64,000 nt of DNA from Thermoproteota archaeon (GTDB taxonomy: Archaea > Thermoproteota > Methanomethylicia > Methanomethylicales > Methanomethylicaceae), in the NCBI GenBank assembly GCA_020832905.1, contig JAJHRG010000001.1:360617-424616 (forward strand), given 5' to 3'. Positions 4,938-21,502 of this stretch are shown piece by piece. The stretch's first letter is position 1, and the number at the start of each line of letters is the position of its first letter. The translations under genes were made by a program, and so were the position numbers. The notes below the pieces were generated by a model. That model was not told where the DNA came from and did no database searches. It saw only the letters and a list, made by a program, of their open reading frames with translations.

Positions 4938-5243
4938 ATGAGTTTCTTTTGGGGAATTCGTTTTTGGTTAAGACTAATAAGAGAAATATTAGCATGTATA
5001 ATAGATGTAAGTAAAAGATGTTTAAATGGTGATATTGATCCAGTAATTCAATCAGTAGATTCAATATTAGCTAAACCAATTTCTCAAACAATGTTAGCTA
5101 ATAGTATAACATATACACCTGGTACTGTTACTATAGATGTAAATGTATCAGAAAAGCGTATATTTGTAGGTGCTATTAATCCAAGAAAAAGAGAAGAAAT
5201 AATTCCATTAGAACCATATGTAGAAAGGTGGCTTGGAAAATGA
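4938..5243 (+). CDS. Mrp/Mbh-type antiporter-module subunit, MrpE/MbhA-like
   Basis: 101 aa with an ITYTPGTVTIDV motif resembling the MrpE TPGT signature. First gene of a translationally coupled membrane-subunit string. Confidence 0.55.
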   Translation: MSFFWGIRFWLRLIREILACIIDVSKRCLNGDIDPVIQSVDSILAKPISQTMLANSITYTPGTVTIDVNVSEKRIFVGAINPRKREEIIPLEPYVERWLGK

Positions 5244-5542
5244 TTGATGCATTAGTATTAGAAAAAATTGCAGATTTAACTTTCTTCTTTGGAGCATTTA
5301 TATTCATGATAGCAACAGCTTTTGCTGGACTAGGTGCTTTAAGACTTGCTCTTAAAGGTGAAACTGTTACATCACTTATGGGAGTAAGTGCTCTAACTAC
5401 AGCTGCTGGTGTAAGCTTATATATAATACAAATTATATTTGAAGTGGAATTTGCTAGAGATACAGCAATAGCTTTATTAATTCTTGGATCAGTTGGTACT
5501 ATAATATTTGCAAGATTATTTAGAATGGAGGAAGGAGAATGA
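5228..5542 (+). CDS. Mrp/Mbh-type small membrane subunit, MrpF/MbhB-like
   Basis: 104 aa, three predicted TM helices, overlapping start-stop coupling with its neighbours. Confidence 0.5.
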   Translation: MAWKMIDALVLEKIADLTFFFGAFIFMIATAFAGLGALRLALKGETVTSLMGVSALTTAAGVSLYIIQIIFEVEFARDTAIALLILGSVGTIIFARLFRMEEGE

Positions 5543-6018
5543 TATCTGAACTTTTTGTAGTAATATATGCAATTATTATAATTGGATTTGTGGCATGGAA
5601 TATAAAAAAAGGATCATTTGTCATAGAGCCTAGTAAGTTAGTAATTGCTATTATAATATTATCAATAATTGCTACAATTATATTAAGTCGTAATATTGAT
5701 ATTTATGTTACTATTCGTTCTATTGCAAAAATTTTAGCTGGTGGTATAATGTTTGCTGGAGTTTTACCTATGATTTCTGCAGGAATTGGTTTATTTAGAT
5801 TTGGTGATGAATATGGTCCAAATATTTTCTATGCTAGAAATCATATTACTGGTGTTATTGATACTACAGCTTCTCTTGTTATGATTTTTGCTGGTTTATT
5901 AATATTTAGATTAGATTTAGTTGCTGTAGGATTTTTCTTCTTTATATTAATACCATATGTTGGTAATGCTTTAGCTAATGCTTATTATTATTCATATCAA
6001 AGGAGGTTAAAAGAATGA
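5539..6018 (+). CDS. Mrp/Mbh-type membrane subunit, MrpG/MbhC-like
   Basis: 159 aa hydrophobic protein with a 4-nt overlap with the flanking genes. Confidence 0.5.
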   Translation: MISELFVVIYAIIIIGFVAWNIKKGSFVIEPSKLVIAIIILSIIATIILSRNIDIYVTIRSIAKILAGGIMFAGVLPMISAGIGLFRFGDEYGPNIFYARNHITGVIDTTASLVMIFAGLLIFRLDLVAVGFFFFILIPYVGNALANAYYYSYQRRLKE

Positions 6019-6278
6019 TAGAATTATCTTCAAGTTTCATGATAACTGCATATGTTATGTTAATTGCAATAACTATTGGTGCTATTGCTGCTTTACTTCA
6101 AAAAGATCTATTAAGAGCTGCTTTTATTTCTGGAGCAGAAAGTATTGCTCTTGCTTTCTTTTTCCAAGCTTTACTTGCACCAGATTTAGGATTAACACAA
6201 GCAATTGTTGGTACAGTTCTTTTGCCAGGAATTATAATTCTTGGTATATTTAAAACAAGGAGGACTGAAGAAGAATGA
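6015..6278 (+). CDS. Mrp/Mbh-type small membrane subunit
   Basis: 87 aa, two to three TM helices, coupled starts. Confidence 0.45.
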   Translation: MIELSSSFMITAYVMLIAITIGAIAALLQKDLLRAAFISGAESIALAFFFQALLAPDLGLTQAIVGTVLLPGIIILGIFKTRRTEEE

Positions 6279-6649
6279 TTGAAGTTACTATACAATTACT
6301 AGGATTTATTGCAGCAGCAATACTTATTGTAGTAGGTATAGGAGGAATGTTATTCTTAGATAATTTAATTAAAAAAATAATTGCATTTACATTACTTTCA
6401 GATGGTGTTAATTTATTACTTGTTGCACTTGCATATAGAGAAGGAGGAATAGTTCCTATTTTACTACCTGGTATGTCTATATCTGATTTTACTTCAAGAG
6501 CAATTTTAGTTTTTCCTGCAGGAATAGTTTTAACCAATATAGTAATAGGTGTAAGTACTACAGCTATACTTGTAGCTTTAGTTATAATGCTTTATAGAAG
6601 ATATGGAACTTTAAAAGCTTCTGTTATATTAAAAGGTGAAAGAAGATGA
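6275..6649 (+). CDS. MrpC/NuoK-like membrane subunit
   Basis: 124 aa. The three-TM pattern and sequence IAFTLLSDGVNLLLVALAY resemble NuoK/MrpC. Confidence 0.6.
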   Translation: MIEVTIQLLGFIAAAILIVVGIGGMLFLDNLIKKIIAFTLLSDGVNLLLVALAYREGGIVPILLPGMSISDFTSRAILVFPAGIVLTNIVIGVSTTAILVALVIMLYRRYGTLKASVILKGERR

Positions 6650-19074: not shown

Positions 19075-19207
19075 AGAGGAATTAAAAATAAAAGAAATTT
19101 ATGAAATGAAGAAAATTGAAATAAAAAAGCAAATTGAAGATGTTATTGATAAAATATCAAAAGAAATTGAAATGAAAAAAGAAGAAATATATAAAAGGGT
19201 TTTATAA
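19067..19207 (+). CDS. possible small, highly charged coiled-coil protein (46 aa), a stalk-like ORF not in the track
   Basis: Manual translation MSEEELKIKEIYEMKKIEIKKQIEDVIDKISKEIEMKKEEIYKRVL. Its start overlaps the atpD stop. Could be an AT-rich artefact. Confidence 0.2.
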   Translation: MSEEELKIKEIYEMKKIEIKKQIEDVIDKISKEIEMKKEEIYKRVL

Positions 19208-19242
19208 GTAAATTTTAATAAAAATAAAAAGAGGCGAAGACT

Positions 19243-19602
19243 TTGAAAACAACTAATTCACGTAAAATTACATTATTCTGGGCTTTGGTTATTATCGTAG
19301 GAATATTTATGGCAATATCTTCTATAACTTTAGTAAAAGCAACAATAATTCCATCTAAAGCCCAAGTTAGTGCTATTGAATCAAGTAATATTGGTATGTT
19401 AGCAATTTCTTCAGCTATATCAATTGCAGCATGTGGAATTGGTGCAGGATATGCATTAGCACGTAGTGGTAGTGCTGCAATTTCTGCTCTAGTAGAAAAA
19501 CCTGAAACTTTCTTTAAAGCATTTCTTGTTGTTACACTTTGTGAAGCTATTGCTATTTATGGTCTAGTAATATCTGTACTGTTATGGATTAGAATACCTT
19601 GA
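19243..19602 (+). CDS. atpK: A-type ATP synthase proteolipid subunit K (c)
   Basis: 119 aa. C-terminal helical hairpin with the conserved carboxylate in [14 protein letters not shown] and a Gly-rich first helix ([11 protein letters not shown]). It also has an extra N-terminal TM or signal-like segment. The TTG start is uncertain. Confidence 0.8.
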
Positions 19603-19609
19603 TGATTAG

Positions 19610-21502
19610 GTGTACTTAATGTTCCGTCCAGAAAGAATATCAAAAACTTCTCTAATTTTTTTTAAATCTGATGTAGAAGAAGTTCTTAAAATATTAAGTA
19701 AACATGAAGCTTTTCATATAATTATAAAAGAAAATAATATAGAATCTAGAGATATAAATAAATTAAAATTATTAATTGAAAAAATAGATGATATAATAAA
19801 AAGAATAAAAAATATTTCTGGCGAAGTAGAAATAGAATCTCATTATCAAATTCTAGAATCAAAAGATATAACATCTTTAATTTCTAGTATAGAAAATGAA
19901 GTAATTAATTATGAGAATAAGGTAAAGGAACTTGAACAAATACTAAACTTAGAAAATTCACTTAGCTTTATTATTTCACTTTGGAGACCTATTGCTATTA
20001 AATTAAAGGAAATATTTCCAATTAAATTTTACTCAAAGTATTTCTCATTTATTGTTTTATATCAAAAAGAATATCGTCCTATAATACCTAATATTCCTCT
20101 TCCAAATATCATTATTAATATATCACAAAATCCTAACATAATATTATCGATTTGTTTTAAAAATGATGAATATAATATTAAAAAATATCTTGAAGAAGCA
20201 GGTTATGTAGAAATACCTAAGTTTAACAATATGCCAAAAGATATATTTGAAGTAAATGAAGTAATCAAACTTCTAGAAGATAAAATTAATGAAGTAACTA
20301 AAATAAAAAATGAGCTAATTTCTGATATTCCTAAAGTATTATCAAAATTATTCTACTTCAAATTAATTTTATCTGATATTCTTTCCATTGTTAATATTAA
20401 GGAAAGTTATTCTTTTGGAAGAAATTTAGTTATGATGGAAGGTTATGTTCCAACAAGAAATATTGATTTATTACTTAAAGATTTAAGAGAAAAATTAAAT
20501 GGTAGAATAATTGTAAATTATGTAGAAGAACATTCATCAAAAGATGTTCCTGTTATATTTAGATATCCTAAATTTATTTCATTATTTGAAAAAATAACAT
20601 GTTTATATGGTACTCCTTCATATAATGAAATAAATCCAACACCAATTTTAGCCATGACATTTCCCTTATTTTTTGGACTTATGTTTGGAGATATTGGACA
20701 TGGTATTATGTTATCACTTTTAGGATTATTTTTATATAAATATACAAAATCATTATCAAGAATTGGAATTTATCTTTCTATATGTGGTATATTTTCTGCT
20801 ATTATTGGTGGTTTTCTATATGGTGAAGCATTTGGTAAGCATATTTTCCATGGAATATTTTCACCTACTGAAGATTTTATGTCATTACTTAAATTTTCAT
20901 TATATATAGGTGTAGCTCATATTTCAATTGGTATATCAGTACAAATAATTAATAATTTAATACAGAATAAGAAGGTTGATGCATTTTTATTAAATTTACC
21001 AAGACTTATATTGTATATTTGTTTTATATACTTAGTATTTGGTTTTGGTTTAAATATAATGAGGTGGTTAGAAGGACCTATTTTAATAATGATTATACCT
21101 ATGGTATTTATGATGATTGGAAAGCCTATATGGGCTCTTATATCTCATGGGAAAAAAGAATTTCTTTCAGTTTTTGGAGAAGTAGGATTTGAAACTATTG
21201 ATACAGTAATTCGTTTTATTTCAAATACTGTATCATACTTAAGAATATTTGCAATGGTAATGGCACATATTTATCTTACAAATGTATTCTATAGCTTATC
21301 ATATATTGCTGGAGAAGGAATAATTGGAAGTATATTCTCATGGTCAATGGCAATAATAGGAAATATATTTGTTGTACTTTTAGAATCAATTGTGGCAATA
21401 GCTCAAGATCTTAGGCTTCATTTCTATGAGTGGTTTAGTAAATTCTTTGAAAATAATGGAGTAAAATTCTCTCCATTTAAATTAACAATATTAGCTAAAT
21501 AA
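19610..21502 (+). CDS. atpI: A-type ATP synthase subunit I (a)
   Basis: 630 aa with a soluble N-terminal half and a polytopic C-terminal half that includes a conserved Arg-containing helix. Confidence 0.8.
   Translation: MYLMFRPERISKTSLIFFKSDVEEVLKILSKHEAFHIIIKENNIESRDINKLKLLIEKIDDIIKRIKNISGEVEIESHYQILESKDITSLISSIENEVINYENKVKELEQILNLENSLSFIISLWRPIAIKLKEIFPIKFYSKYFSFIVLYQKEYRPIIPNIPLPNIIINISQNPNIILSICFKNDEYNIKKYLEEAGYVEIPKFNNMPKDIFEVNEVIKLLEDKINEVTKIKNELISDIPKVLSKLFYFKLILSDILSIVNIKESYSFGRNLVMMEGYVPTRNIDLLLKDLREKLNGRIIVNYVEEHSSKDVPVIFRYPKFISLFEKITCLYGTPSYNEINPTPILAMTFPLFFGLMFGDIGHGIMLSLLGLFLYKYTKSLSRIGIYLSICGIFSAIIGGFLYGEAFGKHIFHGIFSPTEDFMSLLKFSLYIGVAHISIGISVQIINNLIQNKKVDAFLLNLPRLILYICFIYLVFGFGLNIMRWLEGPILIMIIPMVFMMIGKPIWALISHGKKEFLSVFGEVGFETIDTVIRFISNTVSYLRIFAMVMAHIYLTNVFYSLSYIAGEGIIGSIFSWSMAIIGNIFVVLLESIVAIAQDLRLHFYEWFSKFFENNGVKFSPFKLTILAK

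What the first reader, a model, noticed from the sequence alone, without database searches (positions are those of the whole stretch)
4938..21502. A 16.5-kb co-directional supercluster joins an Mrp module, polyferredoxins, a group-4 [NiFe] hydrogenase and the A1AO ATP synthase
From 4938 to 21502 about 24 genes lie on the + strand with overlapping or 0-12-nt-spaced starts, forming one translationally coupled string. In order they are:
- nine Mrp/Mbh-type membrane subunits, including an MrpD/NuoL-like antiporter;
- three ferredoxins;
- the hydrogenase small and large subunits and a NuoH-like subunit;
- an 83-aa unknown;
- atpF-E-A-B-D-K-I.

So an ion-pumping, H2-evolving or H2-consuming respiratory hydrogenase and the ATP synthase that would use its gradient appear to be encoded as a single expression unit. 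That is a compact genomic picture of a minimal chemiosmotic circuit. In the model Thermococcales the mbh and atp operons are, as far as I recall, at separate loci.
Basis: partly seen in the sequence, partly recalled or inferred. Interest (0 to 1): 0.7.

Follow-up and report, generated by a model that had tools for sequence, protein, structure and literature searches.

The report
Hydrogenase and ATP synthase fused operon
In a group of recently discovered methane-making archaea, all the genes of a membrane hydrogenase (Ehb) sit directly in front of most of the ATP synthase genes in one tightly packed 25-gene string, an arrangement kept across the whole order, which hints that this hydrogenase is part of their core energy machinery.

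Summary
From 4649 to 21502 there are 25 + strand genes with gaps of -8 to +35 nt. The next-longest same-strand runs in the window have 11 and 7 genes.

The organism is a Candidatus Methanomethylicia (Verstraetearchaeota) archaeon with 28% GC. The hydrogenase is not a Thermococcales-type Mbh. It is a complete Ehb-type energy-converting [NiFe] hydrogenase with genes in the order ehbA-P. The "83-aa unknown" is EhbP. The "three ferredoxins" are a split 4+10-cluster EhbK plus EhbL.

The ATP synthase part, atpF-E-A-B-D-orf46-K-I, has the usual Thermoproteota order. atpC and atpH lie on the opposite strand.

The ehbP-atpF junction measures 4-31 nt in all 17 species-level relatives that span it. Two further contigs from relatives, looked up through EhbN and AtpA homologues, have gaps of 16 and 8 nt. 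In the species inspected atpF follows a Shine-Dalgarno-like motif, most clearly in the GC-richer ones. I found no oligo-T run and no conserved TATA-like box at the junction. A conserved promoter-like box sits upstream of orf94.

A sister lineage has the same flanks with no ehb genes, so the ehb cassette was probably inserted between the atp promoter and atpF.

Co-transcription is therefore likely but not shown. Which way Ehb runs is unknown. I found no mention of the adjacency in the papers I could search. Interest is moderate.

The parts
4595..4607 (+). Candidate promoter (A-rich stretch plus TTATTAAT-type TATA-like box), about 45-55 nt upstream of the orf94 start
   Evidence: Motif 'AAA(A/G)-TTATTAA(T/A)' sits about 50-57 nt upstream of orf94 in the Methanomethylicales loci inspected (L016 has a weaker variant), including the 52-58% GC ones where A/T runs are rare. 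A similar box lies about -58 nt from orf94 in the stand-alone ehb operon of L026. Function is inferred, not shown.
4649..4933 (+). orf94: conserved small soluble protein of unknown function, probable first gene of the operon (no Shine-Dalgarno motif)
   Evidence: No Pfam or NCBIfam hit. Conserved upstream of ehbA in all relatives and in the outgroup ehb operons L026 and L028, with invariant H42, H44 and H53. AlphaFold2 pLDDT 85. The fold is a generic alpha+beta type resembling KA1 and the BamC N-terminal domain.
4938..5243 (+). ehbA (MnhE-like)
   Evidence: PF01899, E 1.3e-14. NCBIfam NF004922, 109 bits against a cut-off of 99.
5240..5542 (+). ehbB (MrpF-like membrane subunit)
   Evidence: PF04066, E 2e-4. 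NF009254, E 1.6e-13. About 3 TM segments. Its ATG forms an ATGA overlap with the ehbA stop.
5539..6018 (+). ehbC (MnhG-like membrane subunit)
   Evidence: PF03334, E 3.8e-7.
6015..6278 (+). ehbD (MbhD-type membrane subunit)
   Evidence: PF13244, E 2.3e-14.
6275..6649 (+). ehbE (MnhC/NuoK-like)
   Evidence: PF00420, E 5e-16. NF005618, 131 bits against a cut-off of 107.
6646..8142 (+). ehbF (MrpD/NuoL-M-N-like antiporter subunit)
   Evidence: PF00361, E 1e-25. The best NCBIfam hit is 'energy conserving hydrogenase EhbF', E 2e-113, 380 bits, below the equivalog cut-off of 578.
8139..8465 (+). ehbG (MJ1308-family membrane protein)
   Evidence: Precomputed PF27305 MJ1308 hit on the identical gene in L001. 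About 3 TM segments.
8467..9291 (+). ehbHI fusion (MnhB-like)
   Evidence: PF04039, E 6.6e-6. NF009229, E 8e-34. The EhbHI fusion in Methanomethylicales is stated in PMC9635834.
9293..9550 (+). ehbJ (small membrane subunit, assigned by position)
   Evidence: No family hit. About 3 TM segments. Position conserved in all relatives.
9555..9992 (+). 4x[4Fe-4S] ferredoxin, read as the N-terminal piece of a split EhbK polyferredoxin
   Evidence: Four CxxCxxCxxxCP motifs. Fer4 hits. In L030 the same position holds a single 456-aa ORF.
9989..11011 (+). ehbK: 10x[4Fe-4S] polyferredoxin
   Evidence: Ten CxxCxxCxxxC motifs. 4+10 = 14 clusters, the number in Methanothermobacter EhbK (PMC3087415).
11008..11493 (+). 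ehbL: 2x[4Fe-4S] ferredoxin (NuoI-like)
   Evidence: NF004914, 187 bits against a cut-off of 163. Two cluster motifs.
11498..11947 (+). ehbM: [NiFe] hydrogenase small subunit (NuoB-like)
   Evidence: PF01058, E 2.9e-30.
11948..13117 (+). ehbN: [NiFe] hydrogenase large subunit
   Evidence: PF00346 and PF00374. Ni-Fe ligand cysteines at 68, 71, 358 and 361 (RICGICSNVH and DPCLTCCTR). Homologues are named 'energy-converting hydrogenase B subunit N'.
13120..14151 (+). ehbO: NuoH-like membrane subunit
   Evidence: PF00146, E 6e-18. About 8 TM segments.
   Evidence: PF10622 Ehbp, E 3.5e-17, 62.7 bits against a cut-off of 27.
14413..14417 (+). ehbP-atpF junction: 5 nt (TAAAA). A GTGAT Shine-Dalgarno-like motif overlaps the ehbP stop codon.
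   Evidence: The junction is 4-31 nt in 17 other species, 16 nt in L032 and 8 nt in L037.
14418..14699 (+). atpF
   Evidence: PF01990, E 1e-14. The ATG start is supported by relatives.
14712..15305 (+). atpE
   Evidence: PF01991, E 5e-13.
15311..17071 (+). atpA (catalytic subunit)
   Evidence: PF00006, PF16886, PF22919 and PF02874. An AGGTGAT motif lies 4 nt before GTG 15311.
17068..18441 (+). atpB
   Evidence: PF00006, E 4.5e-82.
18445..19074 (+). atpD (central stalk)
   Evidence: PF01813, E 4e-49.
19067..19207 (+). orf46: conserved small charged, probably helical protein between atpD and atpK
   Evidence: Its ATG forms an ATGA with the atpD stop; the two genes overlap by 8 nt. The peptide is conserved (...K.EIYKEVL) in 8 other species. 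Gene callers place a 42-54-aa ORF at the same position in L032, L034, L036 and L037.
19243..19602 (+). atpK (c/proteolipid subunit: one hairpin plus an N-terminal TM segment)
   Evidence: PF00137, E 7e-16. The conserved carboxylate in LCEAIAIYG aligns with the essential Glu of V-type c subunits.
19619..21502 (+). atpI (a-subunit homologue)
   Evidence: PF01496, E 4e-44.
21495..22370 (-). atpC, convergent with atpI (8-nt overlap) and outside the + strand string
   Evidence: PF01992, E 9e-21.
22374..22697 (-). atpH (G/H-like peripheral stalk), in a trmI-atpH-atpC unit on the - strand
   Evidence: PF16999, E 1.8e-6. It overlaps the trmI stop by 4 nt.

Best explanation
**What it is**
The region is a lineage-specific fusion of two operons in Methanomethylicales, which are methyl-reducing methanogens of the Thermoproteota.
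- A complete Ehb energy-converting [NiFe] hydrogenase cassette (orf94, ehbA-P) lies between the divergent proS/MJ0043 genes and atpF.
- atpF is the first gene of the Thermoproteota-type ATP synthase core operon, atpF-E-A-B-D-orf46-K-I.

**How it arose (inferred)**
The ehb cassette brought its own promoter. The ehbP stop codon ended up 4-31 nt from the atpF start. The ATP synthase genes were thereby cut off from their ancestral upstream region.

**How it is expressed (inferred)**
- The ATP synthase genes are most likely transcribed by read-through from the promoter upstream of orf94.
- This would give one polycistronic mRNA of about 17 kb and 25 genes. Internal genes would be translated from Shine-Dalgarno sites.
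- There may be an extra internal start ahead of atpK.

**How it works (inferred from family knowledge)**
- Ehb couples H2/H+ and ferredoxin redox chemistry to ion movement across the membrane.
- The ATP synthase uses the same ion gradient.
- Operon fusion would make the cell produce the two complexes together. That fits a core catabolic role for Ehb here, rather than the low-level anabolic role it has in Methanococcus and Methanothermobacter.

**Direction (my best guess, about 50%)**
- Ehb runs mainly in the H2-uptake direction. It would use part of the gradient to reduce ferredoxin with H2.
- An Fpo-like/HdrD system encoded elsewhere would then re-oxidise the ferredoxin and build a larger gradient.
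- The reverse direction (ferredoxin oxidised, H2 evolved, ions pumped) remains possible.
For: **Identity**
- Family hits for every module.
- EhbP domain.
- Intact Ni-Fe ligands, and 4+10+2 iron-sulfur cluster motifs.
- The nearest named homologues are Methanomethylicia proteins, followed by Methanobacterium 'Ehb subunit N'.

**Conservation**
- The order proS-MJ0043 | orf94-ehbA..P-atpFEABD(orf46)KI | atpC-atpH-trmI recurs in 17 species-level genomes that span the junction. EhbN identity is 72-96% and AtpE identity is as low as 36%.
- The same order occurs in a Methanosuratincola petrocarbonis-type genome and in L037.

**Junction**
- The gap is 4-31 nt in every one of those species.
- atpF is preceded by an SD-like motif in the species inspected, clearest in the GC-richer relatives.
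- In the window, nearly all internal genes carry GAGG or AGGTGAT motifs. The apparent first genes (orf94, trmI, sufC, dph6) do not.
- In relatives with 52-58% GC, A/T-only 8-mers and T5+ runs are rare and none lies at the junction. A conserved TTATTAAT box lies about -55 nt from orf94.

**Insertion scenario**
- The sister lineage (L034, L038) has the same flanks and the same atp order, with no ehb genes.
- Stand-alone ehb operons elsewhere carry the same orf94 and a similar upstream box (L026-L029).
- More distant Thermoproteota share the atpF-E-A-B-D-(small)-K core.

**Direction**
- In Methanothermobacter, Ehb reduces ferredoxin with H2 at the expense of the ion gradient (PMC3087415).
- The cultured relative needs H2 as electron donor (abstract of PMC12244365).
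- Six Yellowstone Methanomethylicia genomes all have Ehb and an Fpo-like complex. All six lack MvhADG/HdrABC, and only four encode Ehd.
Against: - There are no transcript data. Archaeal promoters can lie inside an upstream coding region. In this 28% GC genome the last 40 nt of ehbP are A/T-rich ('aaaaaattaataaaataaag'), so an internal promoter cannot be excluded here.
- L007-type genomes carry a TAATATAATAAA box 22 nt before atpF. It is badly placed for an atpF promoter but is not excluded.
- A/T-rich boxes recur ahead of atpK, so atpK-atpI may have their own start.
- L017 and L032 have a T7-T8 run just inside atpF, which could attenuate transcription.
- The whole 21-kb neighbourhood is syntenic in this clade. 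Conservation of the junction could therefore partly reflect general synteny rather than selection.
- The polarity of the event (insertion versus loss in the sister lineage) rests on parsimony with few outgroups.
- The direction of Ehb and the coupling ion are not testable from sequence.
- The genomes reported to lack other hydrogenases are incomplete metagenome-assembled genomes.
Confidence: 0.7

Rival explanations
1. Two independent transcription units lie head to tail. The atp genes keep or evolved their own promoter inside the 3' end of ehbP, and ehb transcripts stop or are processed at the junction. The adjacency would then have no regulatory meaning.
For: - Archaeal internal promoters within coding sequence are common (general knowledge).
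- The 3' end of ehbP in the window is A/T-rich.
- A TATA-like 12-mer lies in the junction of L007-type genomes.
- T7-T8 runs lie at the start of atpF in L017 and L032.
- The whole neighbourhood is syntenic, so the junction may be conserved passively.
Against: - The gap is only 4-31 nt in all species that span it.
- No A/T-only 8-mer lies near the junction in L014, L015, L019, L020 or L021. No T5+ run lies there in the four of these checked (L014, L015, L019, L021).
- atpF is SD-led like the internal genes and unlike the first genes.
- The ancestral atp upstream spacer of about 200 nt seen in L034 is no longer next to atpF.
- The T-runs inside atpF would equally stop transcripts from any atpF promoter, so they do not separate two units.
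Confidence: 0.2
2. Ehb is the main ion pump, oxidising reduced ferredoxin and evolving H2. The co-encoded ATP synthase harvests that gradient. The operon would then be a self-contained generator-plus-consumer circuit.
For: - Ehb is proposed to conserve energy in this direction in the methyl-reducing Methanosphaera stadtmanae (PMC7485788).
- The related Mbh of Pyrococcus is the closest solved structure (6cfw_L, E 8.8e-52).
- Co-expression of a generator with its consumer makes functional sense.
Against: - In the studied methanogens Ehb works in the opposite, gradient-consuming direction.
- The Methanomethylicia genomes lack the Mvh/HdrABC bifurcating complex that would supply surplus reduced ferredoxin.
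- The cultured relative consumes H2.
- An Fpo-like complex is also present, so the circuit is not minimal.
- atpC and atpH are encoded outside the unit.
Confidence: 0.3
3. The adjacency is a selectively neutral rearrangement. Ehb keeps the anabolic, low-flux role known from Methanococcus and Methanothermobacter. It merely landed upstream of atpF in a lineage with slow genome rearrangement.
For: - Ehb is 'mainly anabolic' in model methanogens.
- The flanks (proS, MJ0043, trmI) are conserved as well, which indicates general synteny.
Against: - Placing 17 genes between a promoter and the essential ATP synthase genes ties ATP synthase expression to ehb transcription, which is unlikely to be neutral.
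- The junction stayed at 31 nt or less while coding sequences diverged to 36-50% identity (AtpE, AtpF, AtpC).
- No member of the clade was seen to have undone it.
Confidence: 0.15

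Closest known systems
Ehb (energy-converting hydrogenase B, EhbA-Q) of Methanothermobacter and Methanococcus; HydDB group 4i by my recollection
   Same: - Same gene order, ehbA to ehbP.
- EhbP-specific subunit.
- EhbF antiporter-like subunit.
- NuoB, NuoD, NuoH and NuoI-like core.
- 14 [4Fe-4S] clusters of polyferredoxin plus a 2-cluster EhbL.
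- EhbN is 52-55% identical to Methanobacterium EhbN.
   Different: - EhbK is split into 4- and 10-cluster proteins.
- EhbH and EhbI are fused, which is already noted for Methanomethylicales in PMC9635834.
- There is no ehbQ after ehbP.
- An extra conserved orf94 lies in front.
- The operon runs straight into atpF. In Methanothermobacter, ehb (MTH1251-1235) and aha (MTH952-961) are far apart.
Mbh, the 14-subunit membrane-bound hydrogenase of Pyrococcus furiosus (PDB 6CFW)
   Same: - Group-4 [NiFe] hydrogenase built on an Mrp-like membrane arm.
- Ferredoxin-linked and ion-translocating.
- MbhL is the closest solved structure to EhbN (E 8.8e-52).
- MbhD-type and MnhB, C, E, F and G-like subunits are present.
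   Different: - No NuoC-like subunit. None of the cluster proteins hits PF00329.
- Polyferredoxins and EhbP are present here, and by my recollection Mbh lacks them.
- The host is a methanogen of the Thermoproteota, not a member of the Thermococcales.
Thermoproteota-type A-type ATP synthase operon (atpF-E-A-B-D-small ORF-K)
   Same: - Same core order, including a 42-54-aa ORF between atpD and atpK, in L034, L036 and L037.
- The A subunit carries the A/V-type insertion domain PF16886.
   Different: - Here and in the sister lineage, atpI follows atpK, and atpC and atpH are convergent.
- In L035 and L036, atpI is divergent upstream of atpF.
- Only in Methanomethylicales is the operon preceded by ehb instead of an intergenic promoter region.
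Modular respiratory gene clusters of Thermococcus onnurineus (fdh-mfh-mnh; from memory, not checked here)
   Same: One operon joins a group-4 hydrogenase to another ion-handling module, so that components sharing one ion circuit are made together.
   Different: There the partner is an Mrp-type antiporter and a formate or CO dehydrogenase, not the ATP synthase itself.

Membership tests
Ehb-type energy-converting [NiFe] hydrogenase | Large subunit with the four Ni-Fe cysteine ligands (N-terminal RxCGxCxxxH, C-terminal DPCxxCxxR) | tested here: met
   Cys68 and Cys71 in RICGICSNVH, Cys358 and Cys361 in DPCLTCCTR.
Ehb-type energy-converting [NiFe] hydrogenase | Large subunit closer to EhbN than to other group-4 large subunits | tested here: met
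   Outside Methanomethylicia, the nearest named hits are Altiarchaeota 'nickel-dependent hydrogenase large subunit' (53-55% identity). They are followed by Methanobacterium proteins that JGI names 'energy-converting hydrogenase B subunit N' (52-55% identity, E about 1e-130). MbhL scores E 8.8e-52 and HycE 6.6e-47. No phylogenetic tree was built.
Ehb-type energy-converting [NiFe] hydrogenase | EhbP subunit (PF10622) | tested here: met
   62.7 bits against a gathering cut-off of 27, E 3.5e-17.
Ehb-type energy-converting [NiFe] hydrogenase | EhbF-type antiporter-like subunit | tested here: inconclusive
   NCBIfam EhbF is by far the best hit (E 2e-113; the next is 7e-40). At 380 bits it falls below the equivalog cut-off of 578.
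Ehb-type energy-converting [NiFe] hydrogenase | 14x[4Fe-4S] polyferredoxin EhbK plus 2x[4Fe-4S] EhbL | tested here: met
   4+10 motifs on two adjacent ORFs and 2 on EhbL. Reference numbers are from PMC3087415. EhbK is split, so this is a variant.
Ehb-type energy-converting [NiFe] hydrogenase | Conserved cluster order ehbA-P | tested here: met
   The order of family hits matches A to P. The cluster and the HI fusion in Methanomethylicales are described in PMC9635834.
Ehb-type energy-converting [NiFe] hydrogenase | H2:ferredoxin oxidoreductase activity coupled to ion translocation | not testable with these tools
   Needs membrane biochemistry.
Mbh (Thermococcales membrane-bound hydrogenase) | NuoC-like subunit (MbhK, PF00329) in a 14-gene mbhA-N cluster without polyferredoxins (feature list from memory) | tested here: not met
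   No cluster protein hits PF00329. Three polyferredoxin or ferredoxin genes and EhbP are present.
A-type (A1AO) ATP synthase | Catalytic A and B subunits, with the A subunit carrying the A/V-specific insertion domain | tested here: met
   PF00006, PF16886 and PF22919 in AtpA. PF00006 and PF22919 in AtpB.
A-type (A1AO) ATP synthase | Full subunit set A, B, C, D, E, F, H, I and K | tested here: met
   All nine were found. C and H are on the - strand at 21495-22697.
A-type (A1AO) ATP synthase | c subunit with a membrane-embedded ion-binding carboxylate | tested here: met
   The Glu in LCEAIAIYG aligns with the essential Glu of V-type c subunits. The coupling ion is not determined. The Ser/Thr after the Glu and the helix-1 Gln of known Na+ sites appear to be absent (motif recalled from memory).
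Single transcription unit (operon) | Same strand, short or overlapping gaps, no terminator signal between genes | tested here: met
   Gaps are -8 to +35 nt. No hairpin-plus-T site lies between 14151 and 14418. No T5+ run lies at the junction in the GC-rich relatives.
Single transcription unit (operon) | Arrangement conserved across diverged genomes | tested here: met
   17 species-level loci plus L032 and L037. The arrangement is absent in the sister and outgroup lineages.
Single transcription unit (operon) | One RNA spanning the genes | not testable with these tools
   No transcriptome data could be searched here.

The most novel reading that the evidence does not exclude
The fusion may be more than shared regulation. 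In Methanomethylicales, Ehb would have become the main catabolic hydrogenase. It would be made and inserted in the membrane together with the A-type ATP synthase from one mRNA. The two would then form a local, perhaps physical, ion-coupling unit that lets these methyl-reducing methanogens live on a very small energy yield. Under this reading the conserved small proteins orf94 and orf46 could act as assembly or linker factors.
Probability: 0.1. Interest if true: 0.75.

Novelty: new variant of a known kind. Interest (0 to 1): 0.42.

Why it matters
How the recently cultured Thermoproteota methanogens conserve energy is still unsettled. Papers list Ehb, an Fpo-like complex and an A-type ATP synthase, but they disagree on what Ehb does.

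An order-wide operon fusion makes ATP synthase expression depend on reading through 17 ehb genes. That argues that Ehb is a core, abundantly made part of their energy metabolism and not a minor anabolic enzyme.

It also gives a simple, testable prediction: one transcript across ehbP-atpF, with matched protein levels. Cultured strains that carry the same arrangement now exist.

The sister lineage has identical flanks and no ehb genes. This gives an unusually clear before-and-after picture of how two large bioenergetic operons became joined.

Tried and rejected
1. **Thermococcales Mbh identity.** Rejected. The cluster has EhbP, an EhbF-type best hit, polyferredoxins and no NuoC-like subunit. The closest homologues come from Methanomethylicia and Methanobacterium.
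2. **Assembly chimera.** Rejected. The same junction occurs in five independent assemblies and in many species.
3. **Bacterial-type promoter and terminator scan.** Uninformative for an archaeon.
   - 98 promoter-like sites were found, against 130 expected from shuffles.
   - 11 hairpin-plus-T sites were found, against 4.3 expected, and none lies at the junction.
   - I replaced it with scans for A/T-only 8-mers and T-runs in GC-rich relatives.
4. **Rfam and tRNA scans of the window.** Nothing found.
5. **Literature search for the adjacency.**
   - Eight searches and six papers read.
   - Ehb and the ATP synthase are both reported for these archaea, but no paper mentions the adjacency.
   - PMC9635834, the main Ehb evolution paper, never mentions the ATP synthase.
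   - The two 2024 Nature cultivation papers could not be opened. The 2016 paper that described the Verstraetearchaeota was not among the papers found or read. The adjacency may therefore have been noted somewhere I could not see.
6. **orf94 function.** There is no sequence-family hit. The confident AlphaFold model matches only a generic small alpha+beta fold (KA1 domain, BamC N-terminal domain) at E about 1e-4, which says nothing about function. orf94 is not the EhbQ-position ORF of L030 (no alignment).
7. **Coupling ion of the ATP synthase.** The c subunit aligns best with H+ V-type proteolipids. The Na+-site motif is only recalled from memory, so this was left open.
8. **One mis-specified protein search.** It was rejected by the tool.

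Full report
**1. What is in the sequence**

The window has 24-32% GC throughout. ORF listing and a greedy gene map show one uninterrupted + strand run of 25 genes from 4649 to 21502. The other co-directional runs in the 64 kb hold at most 11 and 7 genes.

With maximal ORFs the gaps range from -38 to +35 nt. With the start codons that carry a Shine-Dalgarno motif, the gaps in gene order are 4, -4, -4, -4, -4, -4, -4, 1, 1, 4, -4, -4, 4, 0, 2, 9, 5, 12, 5, -4, 3, -8, 35 and 16 nt.

The same DNA, at 95-100% protein identity, was assembled independently in five JGI, ENA and Logan data sets. It is therefore not a chimera.

**2. What the genes are**

Pfam and NCBIfam identify the genes in order as follows:
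- MnhE-, MrpF-, MnhG-, MbhD-, MnhC/NuoK-, MrpD/NuoL- and MnhB-like membrane subunits, plus an MJ1308-family protein and an unassigned small membrane protein
- a 4-cluster ferredoxin, a 10-cluster polyferredoxin and a 2-cluster NuoI-like ferredoxin (motif counts)
- NuoB-like small and NuoD-like large [NiFe] subunits, the latter with all four Ni-Fe cysteines
- a NuoH-like subunit
- an 83-aa protein that is EhbP (PF10622, E 3.5e-17)

The antiporter-like subunit hits NCBIfam 'energy conserving hydrogenase EhbF' at E 2e-113, with the next family at 7e-40. This is the ehbA-P order of energy-converting hydrogenase B of methanogens.

The 4+10 clusters add up to the 14 of Methanothermobacter EhbK (PMC3087415). 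The fused EhbHI is already reported for Methanomethylicales (PMC9635834).

The enzyme is not the Thermococcales Mbh. There is no NuoC-like subunit, and polyferredoxins and EhbP are present. MbhL (6cfw_L) is only the closest solved structure.

Downstream come atpF, E, A, B, D, a conserved 46-aa ORF, atpK and atpI. atpC and atpH lie convergently on the - strand, behind trmI.

**3. Whose genome it is**

The closest EhbN and orf94 homologues carry the NCBI names Candidatus Methanomethylicia, Methanomethylicaceae or Verstraetearchaeota. Methanosuratincola petrocarbonis is at 78% EhbN identity. The species-level genomes recovered in the GTDB scan are almost all Methanomethylicales. These are methyl-reducing, H2-dependent methanogens of the Thermoproteota (abstract of PMC12244365).

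**4. Is the juxtaposition conserved?**

- A tblastn map of all window proteins onto the fetched loci shows the order proS-MJ0043 | orf94-ehbA..P-atpF-E-A-B-D-(orf46)-K-I | atpC-atpH-trmI in every Methanomethylicales locus that reaches the junction.
- This covers 17 species. EhbN identity is 72-96%, while AtpE, AtpF and AtpC fall to 30-50%.
- The same holds for a M. petrocarbonis-type genome (L032) and for L037.
- The distance from the ehbP stop to the atpF start is 4-31 nt in all of them.
- Ehb operons of more distant lineages end at ehbP and continue with unrelated genes. These include L026/27 (EhbN 68%, followed by rpl13e), L028/29, L030/31, L023 and the Altiarchaeota locus L024.
- The adjacency is therefore old and specific to this clade. 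It is not a recent rearrangement.

**5. How it arose**

The nearest AtpA relatives outside the fused group (P0166 and P0169, 70% identity; loci L034 and L038) have the same neighbours on both sides. The order is proS and MJ0043 divergent upstream, then atpF-E-A-B-D-small ORF-K-I, then convergent atpC-atpH-trmI. No ehb gene is present, and a spacer of about 200 nt lies in front of atpF.

More distant Thermoproteota share the atpF-E-A-B-D-(small)-K core.

The stand-alone ehb operons of L026 and L028 already carry orf94 as their first gene. L026 has an A-rich TTTTATTA box about 58 nt upstream of it.

In all fused genomes a box of the form AAA(A/G)-TTATTAA(T/A) sits 50-57 nt upstream of orf94. This includes genomes with 52-58% GC, where such A/T runs are rare.

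The simplest reading is that the orf94-ehb cassette, with its own promoter, came to lie between the ancestral atp promoter region and atpF in the stem of the Methanomethylicales. The polarity rests on parsimony.

**6. One expression unit?**

Evidence in favour:
- The junction is short everywhere.
- In the window, nearly every internal gene has a GAGG or AGGTGAT motif 3-12 nt before its start. The apparent first genes of units (orf94, trmI, sufC, dph6) have none and have A/T boxes further upstream.
- atpF behaves like an internal gene. It has GTGAT in the window and GGGGT, GAGG, GGAG or GGGGGAT in relatives.
- In the GC-rich relatives L014, L015, L019, L020 and L021 no A/T-only 8-mer lies near the junction. 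In L014, L015, L019 and L021, the four checked for T-runs, no T5+ run lies there either.
- The generic hairpin-plus-T scan finds nothing between 14151 and 14418.

Evidence against, or limits:
- No RNA data are available.
- The 28% GC of this genome makes TATA-like strings uninformative here.
- L007-type genomes have a TATA-like 12-mer 22 nt before atpF.
- A/T boxes recur ahead of atpK.
- L017 and L032 have a T7-T8 run in the first codons of atpF.

I put co-transcription at about 0.7.

**7. How it probably works**

Established for the families:
- Ehb links H2/H+ and ferredoxin to ion movement.
- In Methanothermobacter and Methanococcus, Ehb uses the gradient to reduce ferredoxin for biosynthesis.
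- The A-type ATP synthase uses the gradient.

Inferred here:
- Tying ATP synthase expression to read-through of 17 ehb genes argues that Ehb is made at core-machinery levels in this order.

On direction:
- The cultured relative needs H2.
- Six Yellowstone Methanomethylicia genomes, one of which is locus L020, all have Ehb and an Fpo-like complex. All six lack Mvh/HdrABC, and only four have Ehd.
- Berghuis et al. treat Ehb as the source of reduced ferredoxin.

I therefore lean, at about 50%, to H2 uptake by Ehb at the cost of some gradient, with the Fpo-like/HdrD system as the net generator.

The coupling ion is undetermined. The c subunit resembles H+ V-type proteolipids most closely.

**8. 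Comparison with what is known, and novelty**

Both complexes are known, and both have been reported in these archaea. In model methanogens the two operons are far apart.

None of the papers I could search or read mentions the adjacency. The main comparative paper on Ehb never mentions the ATP synthase. I could not open the two 2024 Nature cultivation papers. The 2016 paper that described the Verstraetearchaeota was not among the papers found or read.

I rate this a new variant of a known kind: known parts in an operon architecture that appears not to have been remarked on. Interest is moderate (0.42). A specialist would find it suggestive rather than startling. It does give a cheap and sharp test of the role of Ehb in organisms that can now be cultured.

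Noticed in passing
window 35275-37782 (+): A single 835-aa ORF joins a complete aldehyde:ferredoxin oxidoreductase (AFOR_N and AFOR_C, residues 6-607) to an orotidine-5'-phosphate decarboxylase/HUMPS-family domain (residues 614-819). This is either an unusual fusion or a lost stop codon.
   Followed up: no
window 4649-4933 (+); also L026:2718-3002 and L028:2572-2850: orf94 is a conserved 92-94-aa soluble protein with three invariant histidines. It is always the first gene of the ehb operon in Methanomethylicia and in related lineages. It has no family hit. The AlphaFold model (pLDDT 85) shows only a generic KA1/BamC-N-like alpha+beta fold.
   Followed up: partly
window 19067-19207 (+): A 46-aa charged, probably helical ORF overlaps the atpD stop by 8 nt (its ATG forms an ATGA with the atpD TGA). 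It is conserved (...EIYKEVL) between atpD and atpK in Methanomethylicales. Similar 42-54-aa ORFs are called at the same place in other Thermoproteota. It may be an unannotated ATP synthase subunit.
   Followed up: partly
window 9555-11011 (+); L037:55-1612: The 14-cluster EhbK polyferredoxin is split into 4- and 10-cluster proteins here. In L037 three polyferredoxin ORFs (154, 221 and 144 aa) lie between the upstream membrane subunit and EhbL. In L030 the same position holds one 456-aa ORF.
   Followed up: partly
window 21495-23458 (-): atpH and atpC are tightly packed behind a tRNA m1A methyltransferase gene (trmI/GCD14 family), with a 4-nt overlap and a 3-nt gap. Two ATP synthase stalk subunits therefore appear to be co-transcribed with a tRNA-modification gene. 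atpC and atpI overlap tail to tail by 8 nt.
   Followed up: no
window 1-64000: No tRNA, rRNA or any other Rfam family reaches threshold anywhere in the 64 kb.
   Followed up: no
L032:12542 and L017:12534: A T8 run (L032) and a T7 run (L017) lie within the first few codons of atpF in genomes with about 52% GC, where such runs are rare. They could act as a transcription attenuator at the ehb-atp boundary.
   Followed up: no
window 41928-44134 (+): Three consecutive genes encode CBS-domain proteins of 182, 280 and 268 aa, closely spaced on the same strand.
   Followed up: no
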